From the NCBI GenBank assembly GCA_051294375.1, contig JBJCIZ010001119.1:1-8863 (forward strand): a DNA stretch of 8,863 nt, in the 5' to 3' direction. How positions within the stretch are numbered: position 1 is the first letter of the stretch; the number at the start of each line of letters is the position of its first letter. The stretch is from Paraspadella gotoi. Its lineage: Eukaryota > Animalia > Chaetognatha. The translations under genes and the position numbers were made by a program. Under the pieces are notes generated by a model that was not told the DNA's origin, did not search any database, and saw nothing but the letters and a program-made list of their open reading frames with translations. Positions 1 to 8,863 of this stretch are shown here, in pieces.

Positions 1-520
1 CGTCCACTAACAAATTTGAAAGTTTATACTTTGTCGTAAAATTAAACACACTGACCCCATCCGCCACAGTTAAATTGCGCCCCGTGTTTAGTCTATTCAA
101 TGTCACTGTTCTCTCTCTTGGTAAGTGCTTCGCTCTCCCTCGGCAGTAAATTGTGTTGGAAAATAAAATTTATTAATTGCTCTTTACATTAAAGCTACGA
201 GCTAAAATTTTATATATATGAAAGAATTTTTAAAAATGATTTAAATTCAGCGAGAACGTTTTAGTTCTATGTGGTCATGGTCACTGGCCACCGTGAGTAA
301 CGGTGTGAGTTGATTAGCCCACTGACTTTACACTGACGCGACCACTAAGCGCCGACAAAGGTTACGACCTACACACAACTTCGAAATCTCTTTAACTTAC
401 TTTTTCGTTTCACCGCTTATAATTGCTTTGTTTAGACAATTGCTGATATAGACTGTCAATTTTCTTGTTGTTTTAGATTTGATATTAATATTTAGAGCAA
501 TACGAAAAATGCCGTTTGCT
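1..520 (-). pseudogene. Possible piggyBac-like transposase remnant
   Basis: Open frame about 150 to 1: YCRGRAKHLPRERTVTLNRLNTGRNLTVAD...KYKLS (cf. IY.GK...VV..L.....GRN.T.DN...KLT.VGT). Upstream in the expected order: NGIFRIAL (cf. G..IFRATMS), YISNCLNK (cf. F..NC), LSGRVS (cf. FRGRC). Catalytic residues are not cleanly readable. Confidence 0.35.
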
Positions 521-1024
521 AACACACATCACATAGTTTTTATTATAATGGACCATGTTCTATACTCTTATTACGAGTCTTCATCAGAAGACATTATACG
601 AGAAGACTGCTATATCATTATAATATTCATAATGTTTTCCGATTACACACATTTGAATCCGACCAATATTTATAATTAAGACAACCCAGTCTCCGCGTTC
701 ATTCTTTTTTCGTTTTTAAAGCTCTTTTTAACTATGATAAGCTTTATTTGAAAAAAGACAAAAGTTTTCGCCCGAGCCAGGGTGTTTAACAGTGCTTGAA
801 ATATTGAACACAATTTCGGCGTTTTTGGCTATTTTTTTTTTGTTTTTTATCGTATATTTTTACTAACTAAACAATTTTATTCAAGTTATTATCAGTAGCA
901 TCAATGTTTTAAATAGTCAAAAAAAACTATTTTTGCTGAACTTTCTTTTTAAATCTAACGTCAGCTTTCAATTAAAAAGAATTTTGATGTTGTAAGGCAA
1001 AAAAAAATTATTTTCATGTGATTG

Positions 1025-1647
1025 CTAACGTTTTTCAAAAGAGTCAAAAACAATATCAATGTATTCGTTGGTCTTTCTGGACATGGCACGCAGCCGCGTA
1101 TGGTATTCGACTCTTTGCCAGACATCGCTTGATGTTGGGTTTTCATTTCGAGTCTATGCGCCGTAAAGTCAGAAGCAAACTTGACAGCCCTTTTCCCAAT
1201 TAATAGTTGAAAAGCCATTGCACAAGATTGCCAGAAAGATTGATAATTTGTCATCGTCTTTCCACTCTTCACTTACCTAGGCAAGGAAAGTTGGATCAAA
1301 CTGGCCAAAGCTACATAAATATTATTGACATGTAAATTTTTTTTGAGAACAATTTAATTAAAAATATTACCTTTGAAAATAACCATGAATCTTGAGAAAT
1401 AAAAATCTTCGAGCTTTCATTCTCAGCGCAGGTATAAATGCGAGGCATTGCAGGTTTTCAATTTCGACGTGAGACATTAACATTCGAAAGAACTTAAGTT
1501 TTTTCAGCTATTGCCTTCTTTAGTCTCGTCTTTTTACCTTGTTGAAGCACAATGGCGCAAGACACTGACCTTCCATAAAGGTATCGCAAATGGGAGAGAC
1601 CTTTTCTTTGCAGATGCCCTTTCAGGATCTCGGAAAGAACGCCAGCG
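1025..1647 (-). pseudogene. hAT-superfamily (hATm-like) DDE transposase, C-terminal exons, disrupted as read
   Basis: Across frames: LSHLRYL...LAPL..NKV..KKAIAEKL (cf. HLWYLSE..V.LALF...V...K..MA..L), LAFI...RRFLF, FDPTFLA..SEEWKDD (cf. FL..DP..W), TIN..E(+1 nt)RAVKFASDF at 1165-1195 (cf. VND.AERGVKL, catalytic Glu), TRNE...VWQRVEYHTR (cf. T.DE...Q.VE.HR). Stop TAG at 1025-1027. Track ORF 961-1272 carries part of this. Confidence 0.72.
1311..1370 (-). other. 60-nt GT-AG spliceosomal intron in the transposase gene
   Basis: Minus strand reads caaag|GTAATA...very AT-rich...ttatgTAG|ctttgg. Removal joins ...IHGYFQ-S-FGQFDPTFL in frame. Supports a eukaryotic origin. Confidence 0.7.
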
Positions 1648-1989
1648 CTAATATTTTATAAGCTTGAAAATTAACTTTTTAATATAATAATATATAGTTT
1701 TTTTATATTTATTAACCCACTTAATGAAAGAATTTTTAAAAATGAATCTATATTTCTCTCTTTATCAACCTTTGACGAGGAATTCACAATCTCGCAATCA
1801 AATTAAGAAAAGCCTATTTTTTGAATTTTTCGATTTCTATAAGATCAGTACTAATATATAAATATAGCCCTACTGCGAAAAATTAAAAGGCATAAAATTA
1901 CTTTTTTTACAAATTAATTTCACGATTGTATGTTGTCAAGTTTGAATTATTGTTTCATATACTGGTCACCTTTATTTGGTTTTCTTTTA

Positions 1990-2340
1990 AGCCCCCAGTT
2001 TTGTGAGAAACCAGTTTCAAATATAGTAAAGGCGCGTCAGGAACGAGTTTTCACAGGTTCTACAATTCGACATTTTAGAACCACAATTTTCATGATTTAA
2101 TTTTTCTTTATTGAAATAGAATGTTTTCGGAATTTATATAGGAGTAGATCCGGATTTTCTTCGCTTTTTTGAGCTGGCAGAAGTTTAAGCGCAAACTTGC
2201 CAAACAGATTATTATAAATGAACTTTACCTTAAAATTACAACGTAACAGAGTAACATATAAAACAATTTAATTCAAAGTTCATTCTCCCGAATTCGACTC
2301 TAGTTCGTGATTGCGTTTTAGTGGTTTGCACCACTATTGA
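1990..2340 (-). pseudogene. Probable upstream (core) segments of the same hAT-like transposase
   Basis: NSGAN...AIT.LES (cf. SNTG...GA...LE), NLFGKFALKLLPAQKSEENPDLLLYKFRK (cf. segment after CxxH, ..P...LF..F), and R-FLTRL-Y-YLKL at about 2010-2047 (cf. ARW...IY.LK). The order fits, but the matches need frameshifts and are weak. Confidence 0.45.
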
Positions 2341-2775
2341 TAATATAACATTTAGTTATTCAAATTATGTTTAGTTATTATAGCATGTTAGGTATAATCA
2401 TGGTAAAACAAATGAACAATGAACATAATGACTATTTATATTTTACTAGATCATACTAGTAGTAGTCTTATGTTTTCCATCATCTTCTTGCTTTCTCACA
2501 AAGGATCTTTTCCAAATGATGGATGTTTATTATTTCAGTATTAATGTTTATATTATTTGTTATGTTTATTGATTGTTATTATTATTTGTTGATTGAAAGT
2601 ATAATGCTTATTGGCGGCTTGAACTTATAGCATTGCCCAACTACAGATAGTGAAAGGAAAAAAAAAAAGAATATACTACAAAGAAATATTGTCTCAGGAT
2701 CAGAAAGTAAAGGTAGCATATTCTTAGTTATATTTGGTTGTTTTACTTTTCATAGAAGTAATGAACCACAAAACC

Positions 2776-3512
2776 TTTTTATCGTCGCAATCGCTAAGCG
2801 TTTGCGACGATATTGTAACGCTTTTGCGCATAAGTGGCGTCGTCGTCGTTGTTGTCGGCGTTCCAAATTATAGATCGCCTTTTTTATGATTAAATTTGGG
2901 TGTATGAAGCTGAAAATTTATATACAGCTTCTCATCATCGATATGCTTAAAATTGAGTCTGGACAGTTATTAAATATGTTTTGTTTACGTTTTATCAAAA
3001 CAAACAAATTTTCTCTCTTTTATTTTTATGTTTCCTCCTCTCTCTCTTTTCTCTTTTAAATATATGTAGCTCTCTCTCTCTCTTTTGCCCACTGGGCAAT
3101 GCCCAGTGCTGATTCATCGGGAAAATAAAAACGAATCTGCAGCTGGCTCTGCAGGGGCTCTCTCTTTTTCTCTCTTTTCTTCTGCTGCTTCTGCTGCTGC
3201 CTTTTGATTTCTTTCTTTTTCTCTCTCTCTCTTTCTCTCTGCTTTTTTATTAAAAAAAAATTGAATTAGGATTGAACTCGTAAAATTAAGCATCGCTTTC
3301 GTGCATGTTATCATTTTGCTATCGCAAGATCGGGTTTTTATTTCGTTTTTTTTTCTTAGGTACTGCGTCTGCTAATCAGTTTATTTTTTGACAATAAATT
3401 TTCTTTTCTCAAATTTTATTTCATTTAGTATCAAAACTATCACAATTTGTGCGTCAATTCAGATTTTCTTATGCGATTGGGCGACAATTCACTTTCTGCT
3501 TTACAGATTTTT
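2776..3512 (+). mobile_element. Non-autonomous Helentron-associated element (HINE/DINE-1-like)
   Basis: T-run, then hairpin TATCGTCGCAA(2780-2790)...TTGCGACGATA(2802-2812) followed by TTGT; (CGT)n microsatellite 2838-2861; GAAGCTG-aaaatttatata-CAGCTTC inverted repeat 2906-2931; internal CT/CTG simple repeats; degenerate subterminal copy TTGGGCGACAAT (3477-3488), short hairpin TCTG-cttta-CAGA (3495-3507) and T-run. The 5' end is well supported, the 3' end less so. Confidence 0.68.
3010..3247. repeat. Pyrimidine-rich low-complexity tract with (CT)n and (CTG/CTT)n microsatellites
   Basis: Directly visible: ctctctctctctc near 3070-3082 and 3221-3240; tctgctgcttctgctgctg at 3181-3199. Confidence 0.9.
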
Positions 3513-3858
3513 GGGACTTGAACGTTACCTGATGAAAATGTGTGCATATAGTGACGTCTCGCTTGGCAAAACGTTTTAATTTTATCAGTTGCTCATTGTG
3601 GGGGAAAAATTTTTATTTTGTTCCTATCTGTTTTATTTGTTGATCTTGAAAATGTATTATTTAATAGAAATGTTATAAATTCTACAGCTTCCAAAAAAGC
3701 TATAACAAAATATAAGATTTAGGTTAAACAAAGGAATTCTGTCCTTTTTTGAAACTTGATTTGTACAATGGCCACATAGGCCTTTTCTAATGCAGATAAT
3801 AGATTCATAACATAGATTAAAGTATTTTCGGCTAAACTACTATAGCAAGCACTTTGCT

Positions 3859-3875
3859 AGTAGTTAGGAGGAGAG
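3859..3875 (+). repeat. Candidate Maverick terminus (start of terminal inverted repeat), AGTAGTTAGGAGGAGAG
   Basis: Polinton termini typically begin 5'-AG with short tandem repeats such as AGTAGT or AGAGAG. This motif lies about 0.7 kb beyond the last viral gene. The partner TIR is outside the window, so it cannot be confirmed. Confidence 0.5.
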
Positions 3876-4569
3876 TTACGAGTGACTTAAAAGTAAACGC
3901 CTTCCTGTTCTTGCCGGCTAAGTCGAAAATAGGTTTTAACATATAGGACGATAGGACCGAAATATAGAGAAAAAGATTTTAAAGCTTCGTGAGTTGTAAA
4001 ACTGTAGCCTGACCAAGAGACAAAAAATGAATAGGCATGTCTAAATACGCCAAAATACTTTTAAAATTTATTCTTTCAAAACAAATATTTATTATGTTTT
4101 TAATAATTTGTTTTATAGAAAGGTTAAGTTTTTTCTCTTTATGTGATCTGCGCAATGTCATTGATATATAACTTCGTATTAAATTGACTATCATTCTCAT
4201 TGTTAATTCAGACTTTCTTAAATAACAATCCAAATTTAAGAGGAACCCCCGAACGCGCATTGTTTTGAGTTACCGCCTTCATCCGCCACTCGTCTCGGGC
4301 TTAAATAAAACAGAAGCTAAATACGAAGCGAGCGCTAGTTCAAGTACGTTTAGTGAGAAACCAAAAAAAATTATTTTTCGATCGGCGAATCTGTTTGCGA
4401 AGAGGGATTGAAAACGGGCGGGTTGCCTGCCATATTTCTAAACGCCGCAGGCCCCGATTGACCTTGAATGCATGCAGAAATTGACATCAATTTCCTATCG
4501 ATTCGAATAAATAAAATAAGAACATCCCGAACGGACCCGGCGAAACACATGCATATCTATTCTTATATT

Positions 4570-5170
4570 AATTCCTTCTAAACATCAACTTTGATAATCC
4601 AACTGTAAATAAAAGTCCAATCCAGATACTTTCCTGGGTGTTTCCTTTAAGTCAAATGTGGTTTTGAAATAATTCCCAAAACAGCGTGATCGTTTTATAA
4701 ATGAAGTCATTCGTCGTAGAAATGACGTCAATCACTTCCAATACAATCATGTTACGGCGATAATAAACAAGGCCCGGTGAAAAATAACCGCTGAAACCCC
4801 ACAAGCTTTTGTAAGACTAAACTCAGATTGGATCTTTAAATCATGAATAAATAATATAAATCAATAAAAAGAAATGACATATTTTTTTAATACATCTTTA
4901 TCTGAATAGGTTTTTGGTCCAAGTGAACATATATACAACAATAATTTAAAAAATTTTTTTTTCTAATTGGGGTTCGAAATTAACCCAATGGTGTACCCGA
5001 ACAAGATCTAGACCACTTAAATTTATTACAATATAATAGAAAATAAAATCAAGTTTACTGTGGTAACAAGATGCTCTCGGGTAAACCCCTTTAAAAATGA
5101 ACTTTTTTCATTGTTATCCTTGAATTCTTTATAATAATAAATGTTTACTAATCGTTTCCCTGGTATCCAT
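4570..5170 (-). pseudogene. Adenain-like (adenovirus-type C5) cysteine protease of the Maverick, frameshifted as read
   Basis: ATG at 5170 (MDTRETISKHLL), FKGVYPR, YIVINL, SGT(+1 nt)HWV at about 4982-5000 (catalytic His), CSLG at about 4919-4930 in the usual DSxG position, IQSEFSLTKACG at 4798-4833 (oxyanion Gln and catalytic Cys), then NDHAV. The 3' end is approximate. Confidence 0.88.
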
Positions 5171-5174
5171 ATTT

Positions 5175-6681
5175 AAATTTGTAAAGATTCCTGATAACTT
5201 CCCTTTAAGAAGATAAGTTAAGTAAGATCTGATTTTGTCGAAATAAATAACACTAAAACTTGGGTTACCAAGCCTCCCACAGCAAAAATTTTTAAAGATA
5301 ACCGTGCTGAACCAGCTCATTTATAATATTCCAATGATACAACTGTTCTAAACATCCGCTTCCCTTCCAAAAGCAAAATGTTATACAACGCAAAAACCTT
5401 TAGAAAACTTTTCCAAAGTGATGACTAATTCCTGTCACTTTTAAGAATCAGAATCAAAATAAACCATGTATAAGCCTTTGGGTTGTAAATCAAAGTAATT
5501 CATTTAATTATTTTCCCCAATAAAATTGTAATGGCGCATTCATACAAAAACGATAATTGAATTGCAAATGTTATACGCTATTTGCTTCCAATGGATGATC
5601 AAATTTATTAACGGAGGATGAATTGATAATAACCTGCAGAAATGCACTTGCTCTTAAAGTCCAATAACAACAAAAATCTGGAATAGTAATATTTCCTGGA
5701 GAATATTTTCAAAACTGTAACTTTGAAAATTGCATCAAGAGTAAATGGTTTTTACATTAATCAAGTCTTAGATTTATGATATAGCATTTGCTTCATCAAA
5801 TGTGTGGTCTATTTCTAACTTATAACTAACTGTTCAGAAAAAGATTCACTCGCTTTATTAATAAGTTTTGGCACTTGTTAGATCTTCATAAAATAAAATC
5901 AGCATTAGGTCTATCGCTTTTTGTAAACAAAATCAAGGTCTAGCTTTAGTTTAAAACAAACTTATTGGAACCATAGGTTTGAAAGTAAATATTTATTTTG
6001 CTCAGTGTGAGTTTGGATGATTCAAATAACCTAACAAGTCATTCCGAGATAATTTTGTAAGATTGGGCTCATTTATAAATTCCCGAGATGACATGTTCTT
6101 CCTTTCATCATCAAGCTCCGATTCTGCAGCTCCCCAAATTGACAATCTGTAATACCAACCCACAAACAATGCTAAATGTTACGTTATCCCAAAGCTGAAA
6201 ATTTCCATAATTCTAATATTTGTTTCTGAATATAAGAATCATGTATGGCTGAGTAAAAATTTGAAATTAATAGCATGTATTATTTAAGTTTAATATCAAA
6301 GACCGCACTAAGACAATGGAAACTTAAAGTTTAAATTAACAAATGAACACTATTATTATTTTTCTGAGAGAATGTTCAACAGAATGGAGCAATGGAAAGC
6401 ATCATATCTGTTCGATTTGCTTTTTTTATTTTAACTTATAATAAATGTGTTAGAATCAAGAATTCAGTATCACTTCAATAGCAGATAAATGGAAGCAATC
6501 AAAAACTACTTTGGCTGCTAGATTCAAGCAGTAAAGGGTGAAAGTTGGTAAAATGACTTCCTGTAAAGAAATAGATTTTGAACTCCCAAACTTTGAATAA
6601 TGGTGGAGGATATCCAAAGCATTTGTGCACTCGATTCCATCACAATGTGCCGAATTGAATTAAAAAATAATTTGAAAACAT
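5175..6681 (-). pseudogene. Maverick major capsid protein (double jelly-roll, PY/hexon-like), frameshifted as read
   Basis: ATG at 6681, then motifs in the expected order over about 1.5 kb: IECTNALDI (cf. EC.KSELDLF), VKIKKAN, LILNLNN...PY..SYIQ, GWYY, DLLGYLNHP...QNKYLLSN (cf. G.LH.D.F.Q.KYL), SFENI...IPDF-VVIGL...AF.G (cf. DN.F.G..P...IG.V...AF.G), ITLEKFSKGFCV..FAF (cf. I...F..GY.LFAFDL), AGSARLSLKIF, SVIYFDKIR. The exact 3' end is uncertain. Confidence 0.9.
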
Positions 6682-6685
6682 TTCG

Positions 6686-7119
6686 TTAATCAAAAATAGT
6701 TGTTTTTCTTTTTTGCTTGGACGTGAATTTTTGCTTCTGTTTTCCCCTCTTTACAACCCTCTACTCTAATTTATACTATCCTCCAATTCTAATTTATTTT
6801 TTACAAAACCAAGTCTTTTTGATTCCCTGTTTTAGCATTTTTCCTTGCAGTGATGATTTTCAAAAAAAAACCTAGAATTTCCCACCCTGTTTTTTTTACA
6901 AACATACTTAAGAACTGTATCCAATTCCAACATTGTACTGCTTTCCCTTGACCCTAGCACTTTTAATTGCTCATTACTGGTTTTACTTGCTCTGATTGAA
7001 ATGTTCGAGCAACGGCAATAAAAAAATCTTGCTAGTGATCGAGAATATAACCGTTCTATTCCCTTGAACCGTTTTTGAAGATAATAACGTCTTCGAGGAA
7101 GTTTTAATTGTCTGTGCAT
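6686..7119 (-). pseudogene. Small basic protein between the minor and major capsid genes, putative core/DNA-condensing (pVII-like) protein
   Basis: Track ORF 6832-7119 starts ...RRRYYLQKRFKGIERLYSRSLARFF, loosely like the YQRGxG..F..L.R N-terminus of this Maverick gene. An alternative frame has KQGGK near 6880-6892. The tail reads in one frame KRGKQKQKFTSKQKRKTTIFD-stop (TAA 6686-6688), 4 nt before the major capsid ATG. Confidence 0.6.
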
Positions 7120-7141
7120 TCTTTTTCGAATGTTGAAGTTT

Positions 7142-8091
7142 TTATGTAAAGAAAGGCCTTAAATTAACAATCAAATCACAAGGGTTTTTTATACTGTAAT
7201 CTCGATGCTAGTCACATGACGCTTATCATTCTGGTACGTAAATGAGAACTTTTTCAAAATCTTTCTACAACACGTTTGATTATCTTTCTCCAGATAATCT
7301 GGAACCACATACGAAGTGATAATTTGAAAAGAATTTCCCAAGCAATTGTTGTAACCATACTAAATTCAAAAAATAGTAACTACTATAACATCCTTGTAGT
7401 TATTAATTCAGACTTCAACCTTTCATGATTATTTTCATTAGGCAAATGGAGGCCCCATGGATCTTTCCGATCTTTAATTTTCTTTAACTCCTCCCCCATA
7501 GTAAAAATTGGCACAAGATCTATCTTTAGCAAAGACAAATAACCTGAAAAACATTCTTCTCTTGTTCGCGCACAAATTAATTTTTTAAAATATTTCCTTG
7601 TAAAAAATATAGTGCCCACAATTTTAAATTCCCGATATACAGTTATTGAAAAGTTTCTTCGTTAACAAAATCAATCTAAATATTCGTTTTTATTCTCCTT
7701 CCAATTCTTTTAAATTTTTTATTCCATAATAAATTCTCATTCATTTTTATCACACAAACACTTGTTGAATGTTAATAATAACCTTCCCTGGCAACCATGT
7801 ACAATAATTAAACTTTTTCCCAAATCCTATTTTAACCATCATTATCAAGTATATTCCCTCTCATAAAGAAAAATGCCATATATTGTTTGAATTAAATATG
7901 CATTCATATCAATATTATTAACAGTTTCTGATGTTATGAAATAAATTCTGACAATCCAAAAATCTGTAAAATTTCAATCCACTTACCAAATGGTAAGGGG
8001 AAGAACAATTTTAAATTTTGATGGCAAGAAATTATTAAACTTCTTTTCATTAAGCTCCACTAAAACAAAGTCACGTAATAGACTTGGTCAT
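7142..8091 (-). pseudogene. Maverick minor capsid protein (penton-like, PX), frameshifted as read
   Basis: N-terminal YYVTLF...FNNFLPSKFKIVLPLTI...GLSEF resembles the family pattern FYxTLPS...N.xS.F...LP..I.L...WEVGL.EI. C-terminal YFLNLVWLQQLLG...LR, FEKVLIYVP and KRHVTSIEITV resemble YxDIV..Q.VG...LLR and YxP......TIEI. Candidate ATG at 8091 in AAAATG context, TAA at 7142-7144. Track ORF 7383-7619 lies inside it. Confidence 0.82.
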
Positions 8092-8092
8092 T

Positions 8093-8863
8093 TTTTAATT
8101 TTTGCAAGAGATCTCCTTCATCAATCCACTTTTTTCAAAATTTAAGAATCAAGATATTTGACCCAAATTCAAATACTCCTTTTCTTTTCCTGTCTCTAAA
8201 CCCTGAACGTGCAGTTTTCTTCCTTCAAGCCAAATCGCTCTTTGTTTTTTTAAAAAAAATTAAATAATATTAACTTCATCTTTTACGGTGATGGAAAGGC
8301 GTGAAAAGTTCCAGGATTCTTAGATACACATAACAACGAATCAAGACCAATTAATTTTAAAAGTTGGGTGGTGATGTTTGGTAGTTGTTTAAGCAAATTT
8401 TATAAATTTTGTCTTGAATATCCAGCCCTTAAAAATCACCGAGTGAAACTTGCTCTTATTTTCAACTCGAAACATAATCACCTTTTCTTAAACTCCAACC
8501 TTTTCTTTTTATAACTTCATTCCAATTCCCTTCACGCTCCCTCCTTAAATTTCTTTTTAAAAATTCCTTTATTATGGACTCACCTGATGCTTCAAATTTG
8601 GTGATAAGCCCATAATGTTTTCATTTTCAGTTCGCGTTTAATTAAACTTTAATAATAATTCATCAAAATAAATCAACCCATTCTCCCAGAATGAATGATT
8701 TGCCCGTCATTAATTTAAGATAAAGCGATTTTTCAATAAATCTCCGATTAAAAAATTCTCTATCATAACATCCTGCAATGGACTATTCACGTGAATATTA
8801 TTTATATTATAGCTTTTTAATATAATACAAGGCAATTCAAATTCAACTCCACGATCACCCACA
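8093..8863 (-). pseudogene. Maverick retroviral-like (rve) integrase with C-terminal chromodomain, 3' part, frameshifted as read
   Basis: In frame from 8862: VGDRGVEFELPCIILKSYNINNIHVNSPLQDVMIE, then after a shift FNR (matches D-x-G-x-EF...ERFNRTLK, second D and E of DDE). Further motifs: GEWVDL, IMGLSPN, FKKGDYVRVE (8461-8492, two 1-nt insertions), AGYS, PGTF, chromodomain-like GKEKEYL and KWIDEGDLL (about 8104-8190). Confidence 0.9.

What the first reader, a model, noticed from the sequence alone, without database searches (positions are those of the whole stretch)
4570..8863. Hidden Maverick/Polinton virion module (INT-mCP-core-MCP-PRO) missed by ORF calling
Seen: ordered motifs for five genes on the minus strand with very short spacers (e.g. 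TAA-cgaa-ATG at 6688-6679). Established: integrase plus double jelly-roll major capsid, penton-like minor capsid and adenain protease define Mavericks/Polintons. Inference: this is an endogenous DNA virus whose motifs diverge clearly from the consensus I recall, so it may be an undescribed lineage; pPolB and ATPase should lie beyond the right edge.
Basis: partly seen in the sequence, partly recalled or inferred. Interest (0 to 1): 0.85.

Follow-up and report, generated by a model that had tools for sequence, protein, structure and literature searches.

The report
Maverick virus genes in noisy read
This stretch holds integrase, capsid and protease genes of a Maverick/Polinton virus-like element in the standard order, and they look shattered most likely because the record is an uncorrected, error-rich long sequencing read, not because the element is unusual or long dead.

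Summary
The element is real. A blind search with one reading frame of the window against 1.84 billion proteins returned one hit, a Polinton major capsid protein. Frameshift-aware tests place integrase (z 9.6), MCP (z 54) and protease (z 12) in order on the minus strand; minor capsid is modest (z 4.0), PW/'core' weak (z 2.5, no better than a control). The order INT-mCP-PW-MCP-PRO is the published Maverick module. A pair-HMM fit gives about 10.6% single-base insertions, 2.9% deletions and almost no substitutions, in four of four gene segments, close to published raw PacBio rates. Simulated neutral decay never gave this signature (0 of 6); introns fit 100 bits worse. Some prior decay under the noise is not excluded. 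The MCP belongs to an unnamed group (7 clusters, about 55-65% identity) that is only about 30% identical to commoner Polinton MCPs. Verdict: ordinary Maverick module, divergent capsid lineage, artefactual fragmentation.

The parts
8095..8863 (-). Retroviral-type integrase with C-terminal chromodomain (Polinton INT), N-terminal third cut off by the window edge; about 10 apparent frameshifts
   Evidence: z 9.6, 0/60 shuffles; best window on both strands, z 8.0; five profile slices collinear; reference family is Pfam rve + Chromo
7120..8091 (-). Likely minor capsid (penton) gene; boundaries approximate
   Evidence: z 4.0, 0/60 shuffles in the interval fixed by its neighbours; one slice (profile 181-240 at 7410-7145) above all 12 nulls; not found in an unconstrained scan; reference family folds like mavirus/adenovirus penton
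6686..7119 (-).
   Evidence: z 2.5, 1/60, control interval z 2.6; best single references end at 6689-6704 at their own C-termini; position and length fit 16 fetched loci
6679..6688 (-). TAA-cgaa-ATG junction between PW and MCP
   Evidence: read directly
5173..6681 (-). Double jelly-roll major capsid gene of the unnamed P0121/P0127/P0128 group; 31-42 apparent frameshifts
   Evidence: blind hit E 3e-5; hhalign probability 100% of that hit to Polinton MCP alignment; 142-201 bits vs 7 clade proteins, at most 39.5 vs 33 other MCPs; alignment over residues 4-450 of 453; family fold matches PBCV-1, Sputnik, mavirus MCP
4606..5170 (-). Adenain-type maturation protease (PRO); 3' end approximate
   Evidence: z 12.4, 0/60; best window on both strands, z 10; reference family Pfam Peptidase_C5, E 1e-8 for L066

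Best explanation
The window's right half is the integrase and virion-gene module of a Maverick/Polinton element (integrase, likely minor capsid, probably PW, major capsid, protease), and the record is most likely a single uncorrected PacBio continuous long read, or a contig stretch covered by one, whose roughly 11% inserted and 3% dropped bases break every gene about once per 10-14 codons. Shown: homology and order of INT, MCP and PRO; an insertion-dominated single-base error pattern. Inferred from established Polinton biology: the integrase would insert the linear DNA into a eukaryotic (probably animal) chromosome, a protein-primed polymerase and packaging ATPase outside the window would copy and package it, MCP and penton would form an icosahedral particle and the protease would mature it. 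Inferred and open: the underlying copy is more likely than not near-intact.
For: Identity; order as in PMC8097293 section 7 and in 16 of 119 fetched loci where all four upstream families were mapped. Error signature: ML fit p_ins 0.106, p_del 0.029, p_sub 0.001, half of insertions copy the neighbouring base; separate fits give p_ins 0.105 (INT), 0.14 (PRO), 0.134 and 0.094 (MCP halves), each 13-38 bits better than a model with single-base indels capped at 1.5%. Genes are 11-15% longer than references. Published raw PacBio rates 8.0/3.2/1.7% (PMC7671305 passages) fixed in the model give 260 bits against 263-265 free; nanopore rates 230; introns 162; short multi-base insertions 246. On artificial families 6 of 6 decay simulations gave p_ins at most 0.017 and p_sub 0.12-0.17, 2 of 2 PacBio simulations p_ins 0.07-0.09. 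Same-base doublets are 1.20-1.29 times expectation in the element against 0.86-1.10 in 26 fetched loci over 4 kb (base composition differs). Estimated identity to clade members (0.60-0.65) lies within their own 54-69%, leaving limited room for decay.
Against: No second read or assembly of this locus could be examined, so the error reading is model-based. The fit uses 7 relatives at about 60% identity; a fitted substitution rate near zero does not exclude 10-15% earlier substitution under the noise, and the window's scores (250-323 bits) are below those simulated for a clean 60-70% relative (359-560 bits), so it is noisier or more distant than the point estimate. An exact 22-nt repeat (218/1724) and a 33-nt palindrome survive in the left half, where the error rate could not be measured. 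PW is not independently significant. Host, TIRs and pPolB are not in view.
Confidence: 0.87

Rival explanations
1. An old, neutrally decayed Maverick copy, accurately sequenced, as are most genomic Mavericks.
For: 96% of 3,511 vertebrate Maverick loci are degraded (PMC8097293 passage); 14-20 apparent stops in the MCP alignment; high prior.
Against: Decay predicts substitutions far above indels and a deletion or multi-base bias; the fit shows the reverse; 0 of 6 decay simulations, including insertion-biased ones, gave p_ins above 0.017; best low-indel models are 16-100 bits worse and need almost no substitutions.
Confidence: 0.06
2. A noisy read of a copy that was already moderately decayed (both processes together). 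Compatible with the best explanation as to artefact, differing only on whether the copy is intact.
For: In 22 simulations of read error on top of 0-15% prior substitution, several with 5-15% decay still fitted p_sub near 0; scores lower than clean simulations; high prior for decay.
Against: Identity to all clade members is about as high as they are to one another; heavy decay would need a progenitor closer to every member than any two members are.
Confidence: 0.4
3. The genes are interrupted by short spliceosomal introns, as an earlier scan note reported for another Maverick.
For: Genes are 11-15% too long; unchecked note e1-7498836.
Against: Intron-length insertions with low indel rates score 162 bits against 263; when both are allowed the long-insertion rate falls to 0.0007 per codon and p_ins stays 0.118; clade MCPs are single 453-455 aa ORFs.
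Confidence: 0.01
4. Chance motifs in AT-rich non-coding DNA.
For: Pfam, tblastn, hmmsearch and a strict frameshift aligner all found nothing; one of 40 other gene orders scored above the canonical order with generic profiles (116.1 vs 114.9, mCP and PW swapped).
Against: Blind E 3e-5 hit; 200 bits vs about 20 background; chain score 114.9 vs 71.8 +/- 4.1 in 15 shuffles; z 9.6-54 for three genes.
Confidence: 0.005

Closest known systems
Mavericks/Polintons of animals (vertebrate module int-mcp-pw-Mcp-pro of Barreat and Katzourakis 2021, PMC8097293)
   Same: Five-gene order on one strand, chromodomain-bearing rve integrase, DJR major capsid, penton, adenain; abutting genes; 3' end motif (ACT)n occurs 2.1 kb downstream.
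   Different: MCP only about 30% identical to the commoner type fetched here; no converging pPolB-ATPase module detected after PRO, unlike the usual vertebrate layout; the record appears to be raw read.
Adintoviruses with Beta (Terrapene-class) virion operon (Starrett et al., bioRxiv 10.1101/697771; PMC8502044)
   Same: Hexon, penton, adenain and rve integrase; a supplementary map row lists Integrase-Penton-Hexon with Cupiennin and Adenain labels above it (layout read from PDF text, uncertain).
   Different: PolB class, FtsK and accessory genes untestable; whether this MCP group is in their compilation could not be checked (supplement cut, positive-control motif also absent).
Unnamed MCP group P0121, P0127-P0132 (ENA/Logan assemblies)
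   Same: Closest relatives; estimated 55-65% identity; shared motifs along the whole MCP.
   Different: Their neighbouring genes and hosts could not be fetched; none carries a name (0 of 6 and 0 of 22 members read).

Membership tests
Maverick/Polinton | Retroviral-like (rve) integrase | tested here: met
   z 9.6 against a profile of rve+Chromo proteins; only the C-terminal two thirds are in the window
Maverick/Polinton | Double jelly-roll major capsid protein | tested here: met
   family model (pLDDT 85.7) matches PBCV-1/Sputnik/mavirus MCP at E about 1e-15; Atlas neighbours of P0138 include a cluster with PF21738 in 30% of members. The fold was predicted for a fetched relative, not for the window sequence
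Maverick/Polinton | Adenain-like maturation protease | tested here: met
   z 12.4; family is Peptidase_C5
Maverick/Polinton | Single jelly-roll minor capsid protein | tested here: inconclusive
   z 4.0 in the constrained interval, not significant unconstrained; family is penton-like
Maverick/Polinton | Gene order int-mcp-pw-Mcp-pro | tested here: met
   INT, MCP, PRO placed independently in order; mCP+PW z 4.3 vs swapped -0.3; interval 1417 nt fits 1169-1691 nt in 12 references; order in print
Maverick/Polinton | Protein-primed DNA polymerase B | not testable with these tools
   Not detected in 1-4700 (7 slices, best 6.3 vs null max up to 6.2; MCP positive control 7.2-12.5); sequence beyond the right edge is not held
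Maverick/Polinton | Packaging ATPase | not testable with these tools
   No collinear signal in 1-4750; likely beyond the right edge
Maverick/Polinton | Terminal inverted repeats with (AGT)2/(ACT)2 ends and 6-bp target duplication | not testable with these tools
   Only one end could lie in the window; ACTACTACT on the minus strand at 2466-2458 is a candidate, but the 6-mer also occurs at four other places

The most novel reading that the evidence does not exclude
A near-intact, recently active member of an undescribed deep lineage of animal Mavericks, defined by a capsid group that sits on a long stem (1.79 changes per column, SH-aLRT 100, quick tree) and is known only from unnamed metagenome proteins, here caught next to host-like DNA.
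Probability: 0.3. Interest if true: 0.45.

Novelty: new member of a known kind. Interest (0 to 1): 0.25.

Why it matters
Biologically modest: another Maverick module in the standard order, with a divergent capsid group that widens known diversity if it is indeed uncatalogued. Practically useful: it shows that a 'hidden' or 'decayed' virus in such a record can be a sequencing artefact, that insertion excess distinguishes raw reads from true pseudogenes, and that no statement on decay, motif divergence or short spacers should be made from this record until accurate reads are seen.

Tried and rejected
No own genome held. Phage blastn: no match. Pfam on 12 frames: 0 hits. Sequencing runs: none was listed, so no reads could be laid. 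Word-index protein search with the INT frame: 77 candidates, none at E<=1. PDB search with a protease frame: 4 chance hits. Motif scans of viral contigs: 4 unrelated phage hits and 0 hits. tblastn, hmmsearch and a strict frameshift aligner with generic references failed; lax settings recovered only MCP and PRO. DNA around the close MCP group not found in viral or genome contigs. Raw sliding scores were inflated by the purine-rich tract at 3000-3250, so column-shuffle correction was used; an F6 signal there vanished in slices. No long inverted repeat suggesting a read-through adapter. Rfam: 0. Motif searches in two paper supplements gave 0 but are uninformative: one file was cut and its positive control also gave 0, the other had no sequence control; bioRxiv supplements are closed. 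Literature searches (0 papers; 1 paper) found no test of PW as a core protein. Earlier-findings look-ups by sequence, place and words gave nothing for this locus. The tree is the quick version, unlabelled by host, with long branches meeting near the clade.

Full report
Observation. The window is 30% GC, with no stop-free frame over 108 aa. The TAA-cgaa-ATG junction is at 6688-6679 on the minus strand as stated. Standard searches saw nothing: Pfam in 12 of 12 frames, a word-index protein search, PDB, phage blastn. No genome or sequencing run was available for the record.

Getting references. Their ORFs cluster into families arranged INT-mCP-PW-MCP(-PRO), abutting, in all 16 loci where the first four were mapped (loci are selected by one motif and many are close kin). 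Labels were checked: INT is rve + Chromo, PRO is Peptidase_C5, the polymerase is DNA_pol_B_2; the MCP family folds like PBCV-1, Sputnik and mavirus capsids and the mCP family like mavirus and adenovirus pentons. The name PW follows the position given in PMC8097293 (passages and section 7 read), which describes exactly this five-gene module. These references are distant: tblastn, hmmsearch and a strict frameshift aligner found nothing; a lax aligner found MCP (39.7 vs 17.0 +/- 1.8) and PRO (24.1 vs 14.4 +/- 1.5) only; the five-gene chain scored 114.9 vs 71.8 +/- 4.1 in 15 shuffles, with 1 of 40 other orders higher.

Independent confirmation. One unedited frame (8293-4694, stops as X) searched against 1.84 billion proteins gave a single hit, P0121, E 3e-5, in the MCP interval. 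P0121 is a Polinton MCP (hhalign 100%, 30% identity) with six further clusters at 53-60%, all unnamed and from ENA or Logan assemblies. The window scores 142-201 bits against these 7 and at most 39.5 against 33 other MCPs, aligning over nearly the whole protein with 46% apparent identity and 31-42 frameshifts. The group has a long stem (1.79, SH-aLRT 100; quick tree of 36 MCPs, long-branch warning). Atlas neighbours of P0138 are hypothetical proteins from nematodes, echinoderms and arthropods and a cluster with PF21738 in 30% of members; this suggests an animal host but does not identify one.

Why the genes are broken. The genes span 11-15% more DNA than their references, which neutral decay does not usually give (my knowledge: decay is substitution-dominated and mostly deletion-biased). 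I wrote a pair-HMM (profile to codons to error process) and fitted rates by likelihood only. MCP: 10.6% single-base insertions, 2.9% deletions, 0.1% substitutions, 52% of insertions copying the neighbour. INT, PRO and both MCP halves give 9-14% insertions and beat a low-indel model by 13-38 bits each (4 of 4). PMC7671305 (passages) reports raw PacBio reads at 8.0% insertion, 3.2% deletion, 1.7% substitution; fixing these costs only about 3-4 bits (260 vs 263-265), whereas its nanopore rates give 230, symmetric indels 250, short multi-base insertions 246 and introns 162. On artificial families the estimator separated the cases: decay (6 of 6) gave insertion rates at most 1.7% and substitution 12-17%; PacBio-type noise (2 of 2) 7-9% insertion; nanopore-type (2 of 2) 1-3%. 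Frameshifts are not enriched at homopolymers of 4 or more (9/31 and 11/42 vs 24% background). Limits: 5-15% prior substitution can hide under this noise (22 simulations), and window scores are lower than for clean simulated relatives. Estimated identity to clade members (0.60-0.65; estimator roughly unbiased) matches their mutual 54-69%, so heavy decay is unlikely and an intact copy is plausible (about 55-60%), not shown.

Gene calls under the error model. INT z 9.6, PRO z 12.4, MCP z 20 (generic) and 54 (clade), mCP z 4.0, PW z 2.5 with a control at 2.6; mCP+PW z 4.3 in order and -0.3 swapped. INT, MCP and PRO also win unconstrained scans of both strands; mCP and PW do not. pPolB, ATPase and two accessory families are not detected in the left half.

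Mechanism. Shown: homology, order, error pattern. From established knowledge (PMC10748475 and 10.1101/697771 passages): Polintons integrate by the rve integrase, replicate with pPolB, and encode MCP, mCP, ATPase and protease thought to make virions, which had not been observed. Inferred: this element works the same way and is integrated in an AT-rich eukaryotic, probably animal, chromosome; the left half looks like non-coding host DNA but TIR and target duplication cannot be tested. 'Core' for PW is untested; two searches gave no paper that tests it, and Starrett et al. (section 6) name other small genes of the virion operon.

Novelty and verdict. Architecture and gene set are known; the capsid group is divergent and unnamed in the collections searched, but I could not compare it with Repbase or adintovirus compilations (supplement searches uninformative; bioRxiv supplements closed), so 'undescribed lineage' stays open. 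New member of a known kind, in a record that is most likely raw long-read data. Interest 0.25.

Noticed in passing
window 1050-1400 (minus strand): Frameshifted stretch that by eye resembles the C-terminus of a common invertebrate DNA-transposon protein (recalled resemblance, no call supports it; Pfam gave no hit).
   Followed up: no
window 2458-2466: AGTAGTAGT (ACTACTACT on the element's strand), the published Maverick end motif, 2.1 kb downstream of PRO; a possible left terminus, may be chance.
   Followed up: partly
window 3000-3250: Purine-rich (AG)n tract with a 36-nt tandem duplication; it inflates profile scores.
   Followed up: partly
window 218-247 and 1724-1754; 2780-2812: A 22-nt exact direct repeat (about 30 nt at 90%) and a 33-nt near-palindrome in the left half; their survival hints that the error rate may be lower there.
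   Followed up: partly
window about 4545-4520 (minus strand): Walker-A-like fragment by eye just after PRO, where two fetched loci place the ATPase; the ATPase profile is not significant there.
   Followed up: yes
L029, L007, L069, L006: Fetched Polinton-like loci with other layouts: ATPase downstream of the capsid genes (L029, L007), integrase or pPolB on the strand opposite the capsid genes (L069, L006).
   Followed up: no
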